The position numbers and the translations under genes were made by a program. From an uncultured archaeon (GTDB taxonomy: Archaea > Asgardarchaeota > Lokiarchaeia > Sigyniarchaeales > SOKP01): a DNA stretch of 55,619 nt. How positions within the stretch are numbered: position 1 is the stretch's first letter; every line of letters begins with the position of its first letter. Shown one piece after another: positions 27,295 through 37,848 of this stretch. The stretch spans positions 1-55,619 of the forward strand of contig CAZWEM010000025.1 of the NCBI GenBank assembly GCA_964632315.1. The letters are read 5' to 3'. Below the pieces are notes generated by a model that saw nothing but the letters and a program-made list of their open reading frames with translations, had not been told where the DNA came from and did no database searches.

Positions 27295-29577
27295 TTAGGT
27301 TTTTTTATAGATAAATCGTTCCCAACTTTTTGTATTTGGCATTTCTACCGGCATATCTTTTCTCTTTCGAATCTCTAAAATGAGTTCCTCCTCCAAATTG
27401 CTTGGAACTTTTTCAAATCCAGAGAATTCATAACCAAAAAATGCCCTACCCTGAGTTGTACCTCTTATTTCATCTGCGATACCAATCAATTCTGCAGCAG
27501 GCAGTTCTCCCTGCACTCTTATATATTCTCCTTCTGGGATTACATTATTGACGCGTCCTCTATGTTTATTAATAATTGCTAACACGCCAGATTCAGTACC
27601 TTGAGGAGTTTTAACATCAATTTTCTGAATTGGTTCAAATAAGTGAGGTTTGGCATCCATCATTGCAAGGGAAAATGCTGAAAAACTCATGCTTGCAATT
27701 TGATTATATCCTGTATGTGCTGGGTCTTCATGAATCGTAAGATCAGTGAAAACTACTTTAAGTCCTGTAGCGGGCTCTTTTGCAAGGATTGCACCATCTA
27801 CAAAATCCCTGAACGCTGCGGAAAGATATGACTTAACTCTATCAAATCGTTGCAAACCTGATGTTCCATTTACTAATAAATTACCATTATATACATCCAC
27901 GATTCTTCTTGCTTCTTTGGCGTCCCATCCAGCTTCTTCACGTAAGATTTTAGCTCTCTCCTTTTCATTCATCAAATCGTGAATCCTCCCCGTTTCTATC
28001 ATTTTTTCTGTCTTTTCATCTAAAGGTTCTATGTGCATGAGCATTCGATTATGACTATTTGAGGATTTAGTGTAAAAGTCCTTGCTTGGTTTTGTAATTT
28101 TTTCTCGATACACTATAATCGGCTCACCGATATTAATTTTGACTTGATTGTTGATTCGCTTCGTTAAAATATCAATTTGGAGCGGGTCAATTCCAGAAAG
28201 GATATACTCTTTTGATTCTTTGTCTAATCGGAACTGTGCAGTTGGATCCGCTTGAAGCCATTTTCCTACTACACCTCCTAATTTAGCCAAATCATGAGGA
28301 TCTTGTGGTTTTATGCTTCTTGAAACGACAGCTTCACAAGCGTAACTAATTTTTTCGAATGAGGGTAATCTTGCTTGTTCTTCTTTGTCTTTTGGGACTT
28401 CATTAGCATTCATGAATGTTTCGCCTGATGGACAAATGAAACCATAGAGTGCAAATAAATTGCCTGCTGGAACTTTATCCATATCTAAGATATCAGTTAT
28501 TTCCATGACCCCTAATCTTTTAATTCTATTTGATGTTCTGTTACCAATGAGATAAATCGAATCAGTTTGGTGGAACGTTCCTGAAAAAACTCGCCCGATG
28601 AGAGTTGCTTGATAATTTCTCTTGGGGTCTAAAAAGATTTTGGTTATCATCCCATATAATGGTCCATCAGGATCACTTTTTACTAAGGCTTTTCCTAGTT
28701 CTGAGTTTAAATCTCCACCCCATAAATGTGGTATTCTATAACTCGCAGCTGAAATTGGATCTGGTAAATGATCCACGACCATTCTCAACATGGGTTCATC
28801 TAATGGTAAATTTTCTCTAAGCCATTGAATATTTCCTTCATTATATTTTTCAAAAACCGTGATGGGAGTGTAACCTTTTTCTTTTAAGATTTCATAGGTA
28901 CATCCCCATCCATGTTTTGCTGAACCGAAGGTGACACTATTCTGGGCAAAGTCTACACCCCAATCTGAACCTTCAGGGCGAACTTTCTTAATTAGATCAT
29001 TTACTTGCCTAGTAATTTCATCAATTTTTGCATAAGTTTGCTCGGGAGTTAATTTCAGTTCACTTATCAATCTATCAACCTTATTTATGAAAAGAACGGG
29101 TTTACAAAGTTCTTCTCCAACAGCTAACCTGATGTTCGTTTCTGTTTGAGTCATCACGCCTTCTAAAGCATCTACTAAGATCATTGCTCCATCACTGCCT
29201 CTCAGGGCACGAGAGACTTCCCCTGTAAATGAAATATGACCAGGTGTATCGTTTATTTGGAAGATGTATGGATCAGTATCCTCCGGAGTACGAGGGTCTC
29301 TAAATGAAAGTAATACTACGCTTGTAAAAATCGTAATGCCGCGTTCCTGCTCCTCGTCTTTCAGTAGAAAAAGGAGACCTTATTCTAAATCTGAATCTGT
29401 CATTTGGAGCTGTCCGGCATCTTCTTCTCTCATCAATCCGGCTCTACGCAAGAGATAATCTGAGGCAGTAGTTTTCCCATGATCGATATGAGCAACAATT
29501 GAAAAAATCCTTTTTTTGCTGTAATCGGTGCTTGCCACCATACGAGCGATGTCTTCAGGGTTCTTTACTTTTACCAT
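27295..29577 (-). CDS. fusA: Elongation factor 2 family GTPase (probably the divergent paralog), split by one BHB intron. Exons 29577-29389 and 29358-27295 (750 aa spliced)
   Basis: AHIDHGKTT in ORF 29380..29577, then EQERGIT, DTPGH and NKVD in the same frame after the stop-containing insert. Confidence 0.93.
29359..29388 (-). other. BHB intron in the EF-2 gene (30 nt, in-frame TAA)
   Basis: T-TCAG-AT^T-TAGAA...TTCTA-CTGA-AA^G-A: perfect TCAG/CTGA helix and intron hairpin, weak exon-side helix. Splicing gives QMTDSDDEEQERGIT. Confidence 0.92.
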
Positions 29578-34977: not shown

Positions 34978-37848
34978 ATTTAAATACTTTTTCAGATAGC
35001 GAGCCGTATGAGACTCTTTATAATTAATTATAAATTCTGGAGATCCTTCAGTCACAAGATATCCTCCTTTTTCACCACCTTCAGGTCCAATATCAATGAT
35101 GTAATCAACACTTTTGATAACATCCATATTATGCTCAATAATAACAACTGAATTTCCCTTTTTCACTAATTTCTGTAATACATTAAGAAGTGAATTGATA
35201 TCATATGCATGTAATCCAACTGTTGGCTCGTCAAGAATGTATAAAGTATTTCCCGTACTTTTCTTTCGTAACTCCCTCGCAATTTTTATCCGCTGAGACT
35301 CTCCACCACTTAAAGTGGTTGATGACTGACCTAATTCTAAATAACCCAATCCCACATCAACTACCGTTTTTAAAGTGCGCTTTAATTTGGGAAAGCTATC
35401 AAAAAATTCAAGAGCTTGATGGAATGTCATTTTCAAAATCTCCGAAATATTTTTACCCTTGTATTTAATTTCAAGAGTTTCAGCATTGTATCTTTTACCC
35501 TTACATAAATCACATTTAATATATACATCGGGTAAGAAATACATCTCTTTTTCTATGTACCCAGTACCCTTGCATTTTTTACAATGTCCTGATTTAGTAT
35601 TAAAGCTAAATCTACCTTTTTGATATCCTCGTTCTTTTGACTCAGGAATACCAGCAAAAATGTCTCGAATATAATCGAAGGCTTTGGTATAGGTTGCCGG
35701 TACCGATCTCGGCGTTCGACCGATTGGAGATTGGTCAATGTTAATGATTTTATCAACATTTTTATAGCCTTCTATTGAATCAAATTCTCCAGCATTCAAT
35801 TTGTTACTACGGGTGTTGATAATGTTATGCAATCCTTTATAGAGACAATCAATAATAAGACTAGTTTTTCCCGCTCCTGAAACACCTGTTATACACGTAA
35901 ATATCCCCAAAGGAATTTTAACATCTATATTTTTGAGATTATTTTCACGTAATCCTTTAATTAAAATGTAATTTTCCGGTAATGGTCTTCGTTCTTTTGG
36001 AAGTTTTATCTTTTTCTTCCCAGATAAATATTGCCCAGTTAGACTATTAGATCTCAAAATTGTCTCAAGATCTCCTTCTGCGACGATTTCTCCACCATGA
36101 TCCCCAGCGAGTGGTCCTAAATCAATGATATGGTCTGCATTTTTCAGGATCTCATCGTCATGTTCAACTACTATCACCGTGTTTCCCATATCTCTTAACT
36201 TTTTGAGCATTTTAATTAATCTAGAGATATCTCTTTGATGGAGTCCAACCGAAGGTTCATCTAAGACATATAACACGCCTACCAAACTCGATCCTAACTG
36301 AGTTGCAAGCCTTATCCTCTCAGCTTCTCCTACTGAAAGTGTATGGGAACGCCTGCTCATTCCAATGTAGTCTAAACCTACATTGTCTAAAAATGACAAT
36401 CTGTCCTTGATCTCCTTTAAAACTTCTTTAACGATTGCTTGTTGCATGTCATCTAATTGCAGGGCTTCAAAAAACTCGATGGCTTCTTTGACTGGTAGGT
36501 CTGAAAGTTTTGCGATGTTAATATCTTTAATAGTTACTGCTAAACTTTGAGGGTTTAATCGTTGGCCATTACAGTGGGGACAATCAATTTGATTCATGAA
36601 TCCCTCATAAGCCTCTCTTGCCCATTCTGAGGAAGTTTCCATGTATCTTCTGTGAAGCATGGGAATAATTCCTTCAAAAGGTCTTGAATATTGCCACATT
36701 CCATTTGTAATTCCGTTATTATCATATTTGGAATGATCATTGTCTCTTTCAAAGCGGAATGGTATGCTTTCTTGTCCAGAACCATAAAGTAATTTACTAA
36801 GTTTTTCAGGTTCAATATCTTTTATAGGAATATTATTGGTATTAAATCCATAATAATCAGCTACTTGATCTAGCATTTGCCAAGAATATGCTGTAAGTGT
36901 GCCAAATCCTGGTATGTTTCTAATAGGCGTTTCTTGGAGGGAAACATTTAAATCATTTCCTAAAATTAAGGAATAATCAAATTCCATCACTGTTCCAAGA
37001 CCGTTACAAAATTTGCAACTACCATGAGGAATATTAAATGAAAACATTTTATGCTCCAATGGGGGGAATGAAATGCCACAATCAGTACATGCTAAGTGTT
37101 CAGAGAATGTTTCCTCTTTTTCTTGATCAACTACTTCAATTATCACCAAACCTTCAGTTAAATCAAGAGCAGTTTCTATAGAATCTGCTAAGCGAGTCTT
37201 GATATCTTTTTTCATTACCAATCTATCAATAATAACGTTAATATCATGCTTCACGTTTTTATCCATCGATATGTCTTCCTCAAGCGTGTATTGAATTCCA
37301 TCAATCTCGACTCTGACATATCCCTGTTTTTTCAAATCTTGGAGTAGATCTTTGTACTCTCCCTTTCTATCTCTTATCATTGGTGCTTTAACAATAAATT
37401 TCTGACCCTCTGAAATTGAGGTTAATACTTGATTGATTATTTGCTGAGGAGTTTGAGGTCTAATCTCTTTTCCACATTGTGGGCAATGTGGAATTCCTAT
37501 ATTGGCATATAACAACCTATAGTAATCATAAATCTCAGTAACGGTTCCAACCGTACTTCTTGGATTTTTTGAAAGAGGTTTTTGCTCGATTGCTATTGCA
37601 GGAGATAATCCCTCAATTGAATCTACGTCTGGTTTATCCATTTCTCCCAAAAATTGTCTTGCATAACTTGATAACGATTCGAGGAATCTTCTTTGTCCCT
37701 CAGCATAAAGCGTATCCATTGCTAATGAACTTTTTCCACTCCCGCTTATCCCAGTAATAAGGACTAATTTATTACGGGGTATAACCACGTTTATGTTTCT
37801 AAGGTTATTCTGACGAGCACCCTTAATGATAATTGATTCGTTTGACAT
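34966..37848 (-). CDS. uvrA: Excinuclease ABC subunit A
   Basis: GISGSGKSS, Zn fingers, two ABC ATPase modules and LSGGESQR. Confidence 0.97.
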   Translation of the reverse strand: MSNESIIIKGARQNNLRNINVVIPRNKLVLITGISGSGKSSLAMDTLYAEGQRRFLESLSSYARQFLGEMDKPDVDSIEGLSPAIAIEQKPLSKNPRSTVGTVTEIYDYYRLLYANIGIPHCPQCGKEIRPQTPQQIINQVLTSISEGQKFIVKAPMIRDRKGEYKDLLQDLKKQGYVRVEIDGIQYTLEEDISMDKNVKHDINVIIDRLVMKKDIKTRLADSIETALDLTEGLVIIEVVDQEKEETFSEHLACTDCGISFPPLEHKMFSFNIPHGSCKFCNGLGTVMEFDYSLILGNDLNVSLQETPIRNIPGFGTLTAYSWQMLDQVADYYGFNTNNIPIKDIEPEKLSKLLYGSGQESIPFRFERDNDHSKYDNNGITNGMWQYSRPFEGIIPMLHRRYMETSSEWAREAYEGFMNQIDCPHCNGQRLNPQSLAVTIKDINIAKLSDLPVKEAIEFFEALQLDDMQQAIVKEVLKEIKDRLSFLDNVGLDYIGMSRRSHTLSVGEAERIRLATQLGSSLVGVLYVLDEPSVGLHQRDISRLIKMLKKLRDMGNTVIVVEHDDEILKNADHIIDLGPLAGDHGGEIVAEGDLETILRSNSLTGQYLSGKKKIKLPKERRPLPENYILIKGLRENNLKNIDVKIPLGIFTCITGVSGAGKTSLIIDCLYKGLHNIINTRSNKLNAGEFDSIEGYKNVDKIINIDQSPIGRTPRSVPATYTKAFDYIRDIFAGIPESKERGYQKGRFSFNTKSGHCKKCKGTGYIEKEMYFLPDVYIKCDLCKGKRYNAETLEIKYKGKNISEILKMTFHQALEFFDSFPKLKRTLKTVVDVGLGYLELGQSSTTLSGGESQRIKIARELRKKSTGNTLYILDEPTVGLHAYDINSLLNVLQKLVKKGNSVVIIEHNMDVIKSVDYIIDIGPEGGEKGGYLVTEGSPEFIINYKESHTARYLKKYLNSKI

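What the first reader, a model, noticed from the sequence alone, without database searches (positions are those of the whole stretch)
29359..29388. A second, distant gene (EF-2 family) has a stop-containing BHB intron in switch I, so the system is not locus-specific
Seen: a 30-nt insert with an in-frame TAA sits just before EQERGIT. It forms a TCAG/CTGA central helix, ATT and AAG bulges and a hairpin. Canonical cleavage gives EDAGQLQMTDSDDEEQERGIT, the same spacing as typical archaeal EF-2. The rest of the 750-aa frame is intact. Inference: mRNA introns are dispersed in this genome, and making this translational GTPase depends on splicing. Standard annotation would call it a split pseudogene.
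Basis: partly seen in the sequence, partly recalled or inferred. Interest (0 to 1): 0.93.

Follow-up and report, generated by a model that had tools for sequence, protein, structure and literature searches.

The report
tRNA-type mini-intron splits Asgard aEF-2
The only true elongation-factor-2 gene of this Asgard (Promethearchaeota) archaeon is broken by a 30-base hairpin insert with a stop codon; the insert has the shape that the tRNA-splicing enzyme cuts, and comparison with 128 related genomes says it is a real intron that must be cut out of the mRNA, which papers I could search report for only one archaeal protein gene (cbf5).

Summary
Observation confirmed, interpretation supported; splicing itself is not shown at the RNA level. 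On the minus strand, window 29388-29359 is a 30-nt insert with an in-frame TAA inside an otherwise intact 750-codon gene.

- **Shape:** it folds as 4-bp helix TCAG/CTGA, bulges ATT and AAG, and a 23-nt hairpin. Cutting after nt 2 of each bulge gives ...QMTDSD|DEEQERGIT, exactly what intronless orthologs encode.
- **Distribution:** of 128 family genomes holding the gene, at least 20 in three genera carry the insert at this site. The hairpin shows compensatory changes. Four further sites in the first 65 codons carry similar 30-31-nt inserts, and all obey the same cutting rule.
- **Selection:** exon 2 has no stop in any genome, and dN/dS is 0.05-0.08 in intron-bearing lineages.
- **Host gene:** this is the bona fide aEF-2 (HxDxxHTG loop); the genome's other copy is the aEF-2p paralog.
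- **Machinery:** the genome encodes a two-subunit EndA with the broad-specificity loop, and RtcB. One of its tRNA-Pro genes has an intron of identical 1+23+4+2 build.
- **Stop codon:** TAA is the main stop, and no suppressor tRNA exists.

RNA contigs did not cover the junction. Earlier agents of this scan reported the same kind of mini-intron in other genes of this genome. I verified acs (at least 5 introns, same window) and leuS myself.

The parts
29389..29577 (-). Exon 1 of aEF-2: 63 codons, MVKVKN...AHIDHGKTT...QMTDSD (P-loop/G1 and the start of switch I)
   Evidence: Pfam GTP_EFTU profile positions 3-37.
29359..29388 (-). 30-nt BHB (HBh'-type) mini-intron: 1 nt of B1, 23-nt hairpin, 4-nt H3', 2 nt of B2
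   Evidence: Exact 30-nt gap against 23 intronless orthologs. Same-site inserts in 20 genomes. Structure predicted independently by RNAalifold.
29391..29394 (-). H5' strand of the central 4-bp helix (TCAG, in exon 1; Ser TCA plus the G of GAT)
   Evidence: Pairs with CTGA at 29361-29364. Invariant in 19 of 19 aligned intron alleles. The Ser codon is TCA in only 8 of 28 intronless alleles.
29388..29390 (-). 5' bulge B1 (ATT); the inferred cut lies between 29389 and 29388
29365..29387 (-). Intron hairpin h' (TAGAA-T-AAGG / TCT loop / CCTT-T-TTCTA)
   Evidence: 94.8% of cells in this helix are paired across 17 distinct alleles. Compensatory changes occur at two pairs (GC<->AU, UA<->AU).
29380..29382 (-). 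In-frame TAA inside the intron; it ends the 65-aa ORF if the RNA is not spliced
   Evidence: TAA is the commonest true stop in this genome.
29361..29364 (-). H3' strand of the central helix (CTGA, in the intron)
29358..29360 (-). 3' bulge B2 (AAG); the inferred cut lies between 29359 and 29358. It is not closed by an outer helix.
27295..29358 (-). Exon 2 of aEF-2: 687 codons plus stop, DEEQERGIT... through domains II-V, with the diphthamide-loop variant HEDPAHTG
   Evidence: TIGR00490 aEF-2 profile positions 62-718, E 1.4e-170. No internal stop in 128 orthologs.

Best explanation
Window 29388-29359 (minus strand) is an archaeal bulge-helix-bulge intron of the relaxed HBh' type in the pre-mRNA of the organism's only bona fide elongation factor 2.

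Inferred mechanism: the (alpha-beta)2 tRNA-splicing endonuclease EndA recognises the 4-bp helix TCAG/CTGA with its two 3-nt bulges. It cuts after the second nucleotide of each bulge. RtcB then joins the exons at TCAGAT|GACGAG, and the 30-nt intron is released.

Only the spliced mRNA encodes a complete GTPase of 750 aa. Unspliced mRNA stops after 65 codons.

- **Shown:** the motif, its register, precise presence/absence among orthologs, structural covariation, purifying selection, and the presence of the enzymes.
- **Inferred:** that cutting and ligation actually occur, and that EndA and RtcB are the enzymes responsible.
For: 1. **Precise boundaries.** 23 intronless orthologs have an exact 30-nt gap and read QMTDSD[D/E]EEQ[E/A]RGIT. 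Three of them are identical to the predicted product.
2. **Persistence.** The same-site 30-nt insert is found in 20 genomes of three genera of one family. Exon 2 (687 codons) has no stop in any of 128 genomes.
3. **Selection.** dN/dS is 0.075 and 0.053 for intron-bearing alleles against their nearest intronless alleles, versus 0.060 for an intronless pair. Intron-bearing alleles are saturated at synonymous sites relative to each other (pS about 0.76-0.80, pN 0.10-0.14) yet remain intact.
4. **Structure.** 96.4% of cells are paired, against 27-48% when the partner is slid. Two pairs show compensatory changes. The covariation score is 0.133 against 0.069 for shuffles, with 0 of 500 shuffles reaching it. 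RNAalifold finds the same fold unprompted.
5. **The rule generalises.** Inserts at four other positions of the same gene in relatives all restore the conserved residues when cut after nt 2 of each bulge. The positions are TD|SD, AH|ID, ID|HG (30 and 31 nt) and HG|KT.
6. **Machinery.** There are two EndA genes, one mapping to the catalytic half and one to the structural half of fused EndAs. The catalytic one aligns end to end with A. pernix EndA (3P1Z_B, E 8e-34) and keeps the Y/H/K triad. It also keeps the K44/R46 equivalents of the Crenarchaea-specific loop, which confers broad specificity (PMC3241643; PMC5829648). RtcB is present.
7. **A tRNA comparator.** tRNA-Pro(GGG) in the same genome carries a 30-nt non-canonical intron of identical 1+23+4+2 build, also ending in AA.
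8. **Essential host gene.** Only two EF-2-family genes exist. This one has HxDxxHTG. The other lacks the loop and is aEF-2p (PMC6143161).
9. **Not an assembly error.** The exact 65-aa fragment is on 20 contigs from several public sources. An independent DNA run covers the site without an indel.
Against: - No RNA read or contig spans the junction, so splicing is not shown.
- The outer exon-exon helix is essentially absent, so the 3' cut site is not a closed bulge.
- The fold is no more stable than shuffled sequence (z = 0.12).
- In this AT-rich genome, BHB-like motifs are no commoner than a mirror-topology control, either alone (6123 against 6047) or combined with an ORF-merging test (43 against 40). 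The motif by itself proves little.
- No Asgard EndA has been assayed on an mRNA substrate in the papers I could search.
- Ribosomes coupled to transcription would meet the TAA unless splicing is fast or translation is delayed.
Confidence: 0.85

Rival explanations
1. The gene is a pseudogene: a small insertion with a stop has inactivated it, and the BHB-like fold is a coincidence.
For: There is an in-frame TAA, and gene callers split the gene into two ORFs. BHB-like motifs are frequent by chance in this AT-rich genome.
Against: The insert persists in 20 genomes of three genera while exon 2 stays open in all 128. dN/dS is 0.05-0.08. This is the only bona fide aEF-2 in a genome that is 99.5% complete. 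Five positions all obey the same cutting rule. The chance of the motif in the exact register is 7e-5.
Confidence: 0.03
2. The ribosome bypasses the insert by translational hopping, as in phage T4 gene 60. Peptidyl-tRNA-Asp would take off at GAT before the hairpin and stop codon, and land on GAC after it.
For: In G000 a GAT precedes the insert and a GAC follows it. A stop and a hairpin lie shortly after the take-off codon, as in gene 60 (gene 60 features recalled from my own knowledge).
Against: In G016, G015 and other alleles the codon after the insert is GAA, which does not match tRNA-Asp. Hopping would give a product one residue shorter than all orthologs. The inserts at the other sites have no matching take-off and landing codons, yet all fit the BHB rule. 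The invariant 4-bp helix and the 3-nt bulges have no role in hopping.
Confidence: 0.03
3. The insert is removed from the RNA, but not by EndA and RtcB. Another endoribonuclease and ligase, or a self-cleaving activity, does the job.
For: The 3' site is not a closed bulge. No enzyme assay exists for this substrate.
Against: The cut sites fall exactly where EndA cuts a 3-4-3 BHB. A tRNA in the same genome has an intron of identical build. The EndA alpha subunit carries the loop known to allow relaxed motifs. 30 nt is far too small for a group I or group II ribozyme.
Confidence: 0.05
4. The two ORFs are made as separate polypeptides, or TAA is read through, so the protein works with the 10 extra residues or as two pieces.
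For: The insert is a multiple of three. ARAGORN listed a 'tRNA-Stop (tta)'.
Against: That tRNA is an artefact. After removal of its 30-nt BHB intron it is a clean tRNA-Pro(GGG). TAA ends 1229 of 1789 long ORFs. Relatives carry a 31-nt frameshifting insert and inserts in the middle of the P-loop (AHID|HGKT), which cannot work as split or extended proteins. No start codon follows the TAA until codon 133.
Confidence: 0.02

Closest known systems
BHB intron in the cbf5 (aCBF5 pseudouridine synthase) pre-mRNA of Desulfurococcales and Sulfolobales (Watanabe 2002; Yoshinari 2006; Yokobori 2009, PMC2738675)
   Same: It is a short intron (16-44 bp) in a protein-coding gene with a BHB-like, often relaxed motif. 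It is cut by a heterotetrameric EndA. It disrupts a functionally critical region, is present or absent among relatives, and must be spliced for function.
   Different: cbf5 is one gene with one position in Crenarchaeota. Here the host is an Asgard archaeon and the gene is the translocase aEF-2. There are five positions in the first 65 codons across one family, up to two introns per allele, a nearly fixed 30-nt build, and other genes of the same genome are hit as well (acs, leuS). cbf5 splicing is shown experimentally; this one is not.
BHB intron in the 5' UTR of HVO_1309 mRNA, Haloferax volcanii (PMC7714728)
   Same: An mRNA substrate of the archaeal splicing endonuclease, confirmed in vivo and in vitro.
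   Different: It lies in the untranslated leader and does not interrupt a reading frame. The enzyme there is a homodimeric alpha'2 EndA that acts on a canonical BHB.
Non-canonical tRNA introns of Asgard and TACK archaea (PMC5829648; bioRxiv 10.64898/2026.10.13.758758)
   Same: Same motif and the same presumed enzymes. The genome's own tRNA-Pro(GGG) has a 30-nt intron of identical 1+23+4+2 build. Repeated gains and patchy distribution are described for Asgard tRNA introns.
   Different: The host RNA is a messenger. Splicing must therefore precede or compete with translation, and the reading frame has to be restored exactly. The preprint does not mention mRNA.
HAC1/XBP1 unconventional mRNA splicing (IRE1 cleavage; RtcB ligation in metazoa; named in PMC13149111 and PMC8718801)
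   Same: Spliceosome-independent removal of a short intron from an mRNA by a protein endonuclease acting on RNA structure, followed by tRNA-ligase-type joining. The splicing changes what protein is made.
   Different: The endonuclease (IRE1) and the motif (two 7-nt loops) are different. That system is regulatory and stress-induced, in eukaryotes. This is a resemblance in mechanism only, not membership.

Membership tests
Archaeal BHB (EndA-type) intron | Central 4-bp helix flanked by two 3-nt bulges on opposite strands | tested here: met
   TCAG/CTGA with ATT and AAG. The helix is invariant in 19 alleles. RNAalifold predicts it.
Archaeal BHB (EndA-type) intron | Both flanking helices present (h and h', strict hBHBh') | tested here: not met
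   h' is a 9-10-bp hairpin. The exon-exon helix h is only about 1 bp. This makes it the relaxed HBh' class, which (alpha-beta)2 and epsilon2 EndAs accept (PMC5829648).
Archaeal BHB (EndA-type) intron | Cutting at the symmetric bulge positions restores a functional RNA | tested here: met
   The junction gives exactly the ortholog sequence and spacing. The same rule works at four other sites of this gene, in acs, in leuS and in tRNA-Pro.
Archaeal BHB (EndA-type) intron | The genome encodes a splicing endonuclease able to take relaxed motifs, and an RtcB ligase | tested here: met
   Two PF01974 genes that behave as alpha and beta subunits. The alpha subunit keeps the catalytic Y/H/K triad and the K44/R46 equivalents of the CSL. 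RtcB hit at E 1e-170.
Archaeal BHB (EndA-type) intron | The spliced RNA (and the excised or circular intron) is observed | tested here: inconclusive
   RNA-library contigs cover only 28060-28791 and not the junction. No intronless copy with G000's flanks was found in JGI metagenome contigs.
Archaeal elongation factor 2 (bona fide aEF-2, as opposed to aEF-2p) | Five-domain EF-2 architecture with GTPase motifs | tested here: met
   GTP_EFTU, EF-G_D2, EFG_III, EFG_IV and EFG_C hits. TIGR00490 profile 62-718 for exon 2, 568.9 bits; this is below the 738-bit cut-off, as is the paralog's score.
Archaeal elongation factor 2 (bona fide aEF-2, as opposed to aEF-2p) | Domain IV diphthamide loop HxDxxH[R/T]G retained (R702T in Asgard genomes with two copies) | tested here: met
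   HEDPAHTG is present in exon 2. The C59 copy lacks the motif. Criteria taken from PMC6143161.
Group I / group II self-splicing intron, or intein | Ribozyme core of hundreds of nt, or an in-frame protein-splicing domain | tested here: not met
   The insert is 30 nt long and carries a stop codon. The window has no Rfam match.

The most novel reading that the evidence does not exclude
Lokiarchaeia-type Asgard archaea run a genome-wide mRNA splicing system that depends on EndA and RtcB.

- Dozens of roughly 30-nt BHB mini-introns are gained, lost and slid within protein genes.
- Essential translation genes are affected: the sole aEF-2, leuS and, per other notes of this scan, uS8.
- Some introns are in frame and stop-free, so they pass as small 'insertions' in databases.
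- Making the translation machinery would then depend on prior RNA splicing. That implies that translation is kept from running on nascent unspliced mRNA in the closest prokaryotic relatives of eukaryotes.
Probability: 0.6. Interest if true: 0.9.

Novelty: new variant of a known kind. Interest (0 to 1): 0.8.

Why it matters
- **Scope of archaeal mRNA splicing.** In the papers I could search, splicing of a coding sequence in archaea rests on one gene (cbf5) in Crenarchaeota. Here the same chemistry interrupts the single true translocase gene of an Asgard archaeon. It does so at five positions across one family and alongside other interrupted genes in the same genome. That turns a curiosity into a system.
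- **Annotation.** The gene is on record as two ORFs. Stop-free introns in the neighbouring acs gene are translated as false 10-aa insertions.
- **Phylogenetics.** EF-2 is a standard marker for the archaea-eukaryote relationship, so broken or padded sequences would distort trees.
- **Open questions now testable.** How can a cell with coupled transcription and translation tolerate introns in messengers? How do such introns arrive, slide (TD|SD against SD|D, 6 nt apart across a repeated hexamer) and get lost precisely?

Tried and rejected
1. **RNA evidence.** Three RNA-library runs hold near-identical contigs, but only at 28060-28515 and 28574-28791 inside exon 2. Nothing covers 29359-29388, so there is no verdict on splicing.
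2. **Spliced junction in JGI metagenome contigs.** An exact search for the junction with G000's own flanks gave 0 hits.
3. **Thermodynamics.** The MFE fold has the expected shape but is no more stable than shuffles (z = 0.12). It cannot be used as evidence.
4. **De novo counting of introns in G000.** The motif alone gave 6123 hits against 6047 in a mirror-topology control. The motif plus an ORF-merging test gave 43 against 40. There is no excess, so my scan cannot estimate how many introns the genome holds. Most hits were gene boundaries, for example the C1 thiolase end and start.
5. **Candidate at window 36601-36626.** This is a false positive; uvrA is an intact 960-aa ORF.
6. **Candidates in C3 (E2-like gene) and C38 (M32 peptidase).** I left these unresolved.
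7. **TAA suppression.** ARAGORN's 'tRNA-Stop(tta)' is a mis-parsed tRNA-Pro(GGG) with a BHB intron.
8. **dN/dS between the three intron-bearing genus-mates.** It could not be computed, because synonymous sites are saturated. I used nearest-neighbour pairs instead.
Full report
**What is there.** The finding lies in a minus-strand gene, window 29577..27295. Read straight through, this is 761 codons with one internal stop, TAA at 29382-29380. ORF listing splits it into a 65-aa and a 629-aa ORF.

The 30 nt at 29388..29359 read T / TAGAATAAGGTCTCCTTTTTCTA / CTGA / AA. Upstream, the exon contributes TCAG (29394-29391), which pairs perfectly with CTGA. ATT and AAG are the two 3-nt bulges, and the 23 nt between them form a hairpin (TAGAA-T-AAGG, loop TCT, CCTT-T-TTCTA).

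Cutting after the second nucleotide of each bulge is the position at which a canonical tRNA BHB is cut (the 37/38 geometry, from my own knowledge of the motif). It joins TCAGAT to GACGAG and gives ...EDAGQLQMTDSD|DEEQERGIT and a 750-aa protein.

Two qualifications apply. The exon-exon outer helix is only about 1 bp, so this is the relaxed HBh' form. The minimum-energy fold has the right shape but is no more stable than shuffled sequence (z = 0.12).

**Is it more than chance?** A composition-matched random 37-mer satisfies the helix and at least 8 of 9 hairpin pairs in this fixed register in 144 of 2,000,000 trials. The register itself is fixed independently by orthologs, as the next section shows.

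**Comparative evidence.** Orthologs were found in all 30 relatives searched. At the N-terminus, 23 of them read straight through as QMTDSD[D/E]EEQ[E/A]RGIT, and three read exactly the predicted product QMTDSDDEEQERGIT. A DNA alignment shows a clean 30-nt gap at exactly 29388-29359. The junction cannot be moved by one base without changing conserved residues.

Across the whole family (135 genomes, 13 genera), 128 hold the ortholog, and none has a stop inside the 687 codons of exon 2. After fetching the upstream parts, 20 genomes from three genera turned out to carry a 30-nt insert at this same site.

- All aligned alleles have TCAG/CTGA. B1 is ATT or ATA, and B2 is AAG or ATG.
- On 19 aligned alleles (17 distinct), 96.4% of cells are paired, against 27-48% when the partners are slid.
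- Two hairpin pairs show compensatory double changes: GC<->AU in 3 distinct alleles and UA<->AU in 4.
- The covariation score is 0.133 against 0.069 for shuffles, with 0 of 500 shuffles reaching it.
- RNAalifold predicts the same structure unprompted.
- The exon-side helix strand is the Ser codon TCA in 19 of 19 intron alleles but in only 8 of 28 intronless ones. This is suggestive only, since the sequences are related.

**Other intron sites in the same gene.** Relatives carry similar inserts at four more positions in the first 65 codons.

| Site | Position | Genomes | Build |
|---|---|---|---|
| A' | TD\|SD, 6 nt upstream of site A | G056, G051 | ACAG or ACGG / CTGT helix |
| B | AH\|ID | G068, G063, G114 | 30 nt |
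| C/E | ID\|HG | G016 (31 nt, frameshifting), G052 (30 nt) | 30-31 nt |
| D | HG\|KT | G045 | 30 nt |

In every case a 4-3-[23 or 24]-4-3 register exists that restores AHIDHGKT or QMTDSD exactly under the same cutting rule. G016 and G068 each carry two introns. Inserts in the middle of the P-loop, one of them not a multiple of three, cannot be tolerated in a protein. They must be removed.

**Selection.**

- Intron-bearing G016 against its nearest intronless relative: dN/dS = 0.075.
- Intron-bearing G015 against its nearest intronless relative: dN/dS = 0.053.
- An intronless pair: dN/dS = 0.060.
- G000, G016 and G015 are saturated at synonymous sites relative to each other (pS 0.76-0.80), with pN 0.10-0.14 and intact frames.

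On a maximum-likelihood tree of 26 orthologs, the three intron alleles of the genus are scattered, needing at least 3 changes. Since the intron sequences are similar within a genus, I read this as old presence with repeated precise loss, but gain by transfer is not excluded. None of 12 genomes from the other three families of the order has the insert.

**What the gene is.** Exon 1 matches the start of GTP_EFTU (positions 3-37). Exon 2 continues it (49-187), followed by the EF-G domains II-V. Exon 2 covers TIGR00490 aEF-2 positions 62-718.

The genome holds only two EF-2-family genes. Narrowe et al. 2018 (PMC6143161) give the criteria for telling them apart. In Asgard genomes with two copies, the bona fide aEF-2 keeps HxDxxH with R702 changed to T, and the paralog aEF-2p lacks the loop. 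The window gene has HEDPAHTG, while the C59 copy has no such motif. So the interrupted gene is the organism's translocase. Without removal of the insert, the cell would make a 65-aa peptide and, at best, a 629-aa fragment lacking G1-G3.

**Machinery.**

- G000 has two EndA genes. One maps to the catalytic C-terminal half and the other to the structural N-terminal half of fused endonucleases. This is the (alpha-beta)2 arrangement reported for Asgard archaea (PMC5829648).
- The alpha subunit aligns without gaps to A. pernix EndA chain 3P1Z_B (E 8e-34). The alignment includes the catalytic Tyr/His/Lys and the Crenarchaea-specific loop, with Lys and Arg at the K44 and R46 positions. That loop confers cleavage of relaxed and non-canonical motifs, and K44 is the RNA-recognition residue (PMC3241643).
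- RtcB is present.
- The genome's tRNA-Pro(GGG) carries a 30-nt intron at a non-canonical position with the same 1+23+4+2 build. Its helix is UGAU/AUCG and its bulges are ACG and AAU. Removing it turns ARAGORN's spurious 'tRNA-Stop(tta)' into a clean 74-nt tRNA-Pro.

**Rivals.**

- *TAA recoding* is excluded. TAA ends 1229 of 1789 long ORFs, and the only candidate suppressor tRNA is an artefact.
- *A pseudogene* is contradicted by persistence, selection and essentiality.
- *Translational hopping* fits G000 superficially (GAT ... GAC). It fails in alleles where GAA follows the insert and at the other sites, and it would give a product one residue short.
- *Split or extended proteins* fail on the P-loop and frameshifting inserts.
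- *Removal by other enzymes* cannot be excluded without an assay, but it is unparsimonious.

**Not locus-specific.** In the same window the acetate-CoA ligase gene (minus strand, about 1765 to 1) is interrupted several times.

- At 788-819 there is a 32-nt BHB insert. The exons abut on TIGR02188 at positions 288 and 290, with the junction codon between them.
- BHB hits lie at 572-601, 433-462, 326-355 and 135-164.
- The first three of those are in frame and stop-free. They appear as exact 10-residue insertions against solved Salmonella Acs (2p2j) inside YTAPTA, GEPINPEAW and WQTETGG.
- A 14-residue insertion remains without a motif hit at my thresholds.

On contig C41, leuS has a 30-nt insert whose exons abut at TIGR00396 positions 76/77.

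My own genome-wide scans could not count introns, because BHB-like motifs show no excess over a mirror-topology control. One of my candidates (uvrA) was false. Earlier agents of this scan reported the same kind of mini-intron in other genes of this genome: thiolase, uS8, histone, TBP, and gyrB with an RNA contig lacking the intron. I did not re-test the former. My acs results agree with the latter.

**Provenance and reality of the DNA.** Records of relatives are titled Promethearchaeota archaeon and Candidatus Harpocratesius repetitus (Loki), so this is an Asgard genome of the Lokiarchaeia type. It is 4.45 Mb, 33% GC and 99.5% complete, with some high-GC contaminant contigs. The exact 65-aa and 629-aa ORFs are on record as separate proteins in NCBI, JGI and ENA sets. 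The 65-aa one is on 20 contigs. A DNA run covers the site without an indel. The insert is therefore real DNA, and it is currently mis-annotated.

**Literature.** The papers I could search document BHB introns in archaeal messengers only in two cases. [quoted passage not shown] A 2026 preprint describes heavily interrupted Asgard tRNA genes with repeated gains but does not mention mRNA.

**Verdict.** The best explanation (0.85) is an EndA/RtcB-spliced HBh'-type mini-intron in the essential aEF-2 mRNA. The mechanism is a known kind. New here are the host lineage, the gene, the multiplicity of sites and the genome-wide spread. The missing piece is direct RNA evidence at this junction.

Noticed in passing
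window 135-819 (minus strand), acs gene about 1765 to 1: The acetate-CoA ligase gene carries at least 5 BHB mini-introns: 788-819 (32 nt) and 572-601, 433-462, 326-355 and 135-164 (30 nt each). Three are in frame and stop-free, so they are translated as false 10-aa insertions inside conserved motifs. A further 14-aa insertion (about 650-691) had no motif hit at my thresholds. The gene runs off the contig start.
   Followed up: partly
G000 contig C41:26254-26283 (minus); L063:2555-2584: A 30-nt BHB insert (TATG ATA [23] CATA AAA) in leucyl-tRNA synthetase. The exons abut exactly at TIGR00396 profile positions 76/77.
   Followed up: yes
G000 contig C15:60320-60423 (minus); L035:101-204: ARAGORN's 'tRNA-Stop(tta)' is really tRNA-Pro(GGG) with a 30-nt BHB intron at a non-canonical position (D-arm / anticodon-stem junction). 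The intron has the same 1+23+4+2 build as the mRNA introns. ARAGORN finds only 30 tRNAs in the whole genome, so most tRNA genes are probably hidden by such introns.
   Followed up: yes
L051 (G056) and L052 (G051), against site A alleles: An intron with a similar hairpin sits 6 nt upstream (TD|SD) of site A (SD|D). The exon there is a near-repeat, ACAGAT-TCAGAT, and the intron's H3' strand reads CTGT instead of CTGA to match. This looks like intron sliding by one hexamer.
   Followed up: partly
aEF-2 orthologs, codons 1-65: All five intron positions found in this gene lie between the P-loop and switch I, in the first 190 nt of a 2.25-kb gene. No stop-carrying insert was seen in the remaining 687 codons in 128 genomes. 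A 5' bias like this recalls intron-poor eukaryotes, or selection for early termination of unspliced messages. Stop-free in-frame inserts upstream would have been missed.
   Followed up: no
L005 (G016) and L049 (G068): Two relatives carry two introns each in aEF-2: P-loop plus switch I. The G016 P-loop intron is 31 nt with a 3-of-4-paired central helix (ATAG/CTAG).
   Followed up: partly
G000 contigs C36, C74, C80, C82, C87, C90, C98, C103-C117: About 20 short contigs have 41-70% GC against 33% for the genome. They are probably contaminants of the bin (contamination estimate 8.6%).
   Followed up: no
G000 contig C3:12836-12863 (minus) and C38:31692-31722 (minus): BHB-plus-ORF candidates in an E2 ubiquitin-conjugating-like gene (..PPFFQSK... 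/ ..PNIDSS..GKLNICLD) and upstream of an M32 carboxypeptidase-like gene. The C38 insert resembles the aEF-2 intron in sequence (TCAG ... TAGAAGAAT...ATTTTA CTGA AA).
   Followed up: no
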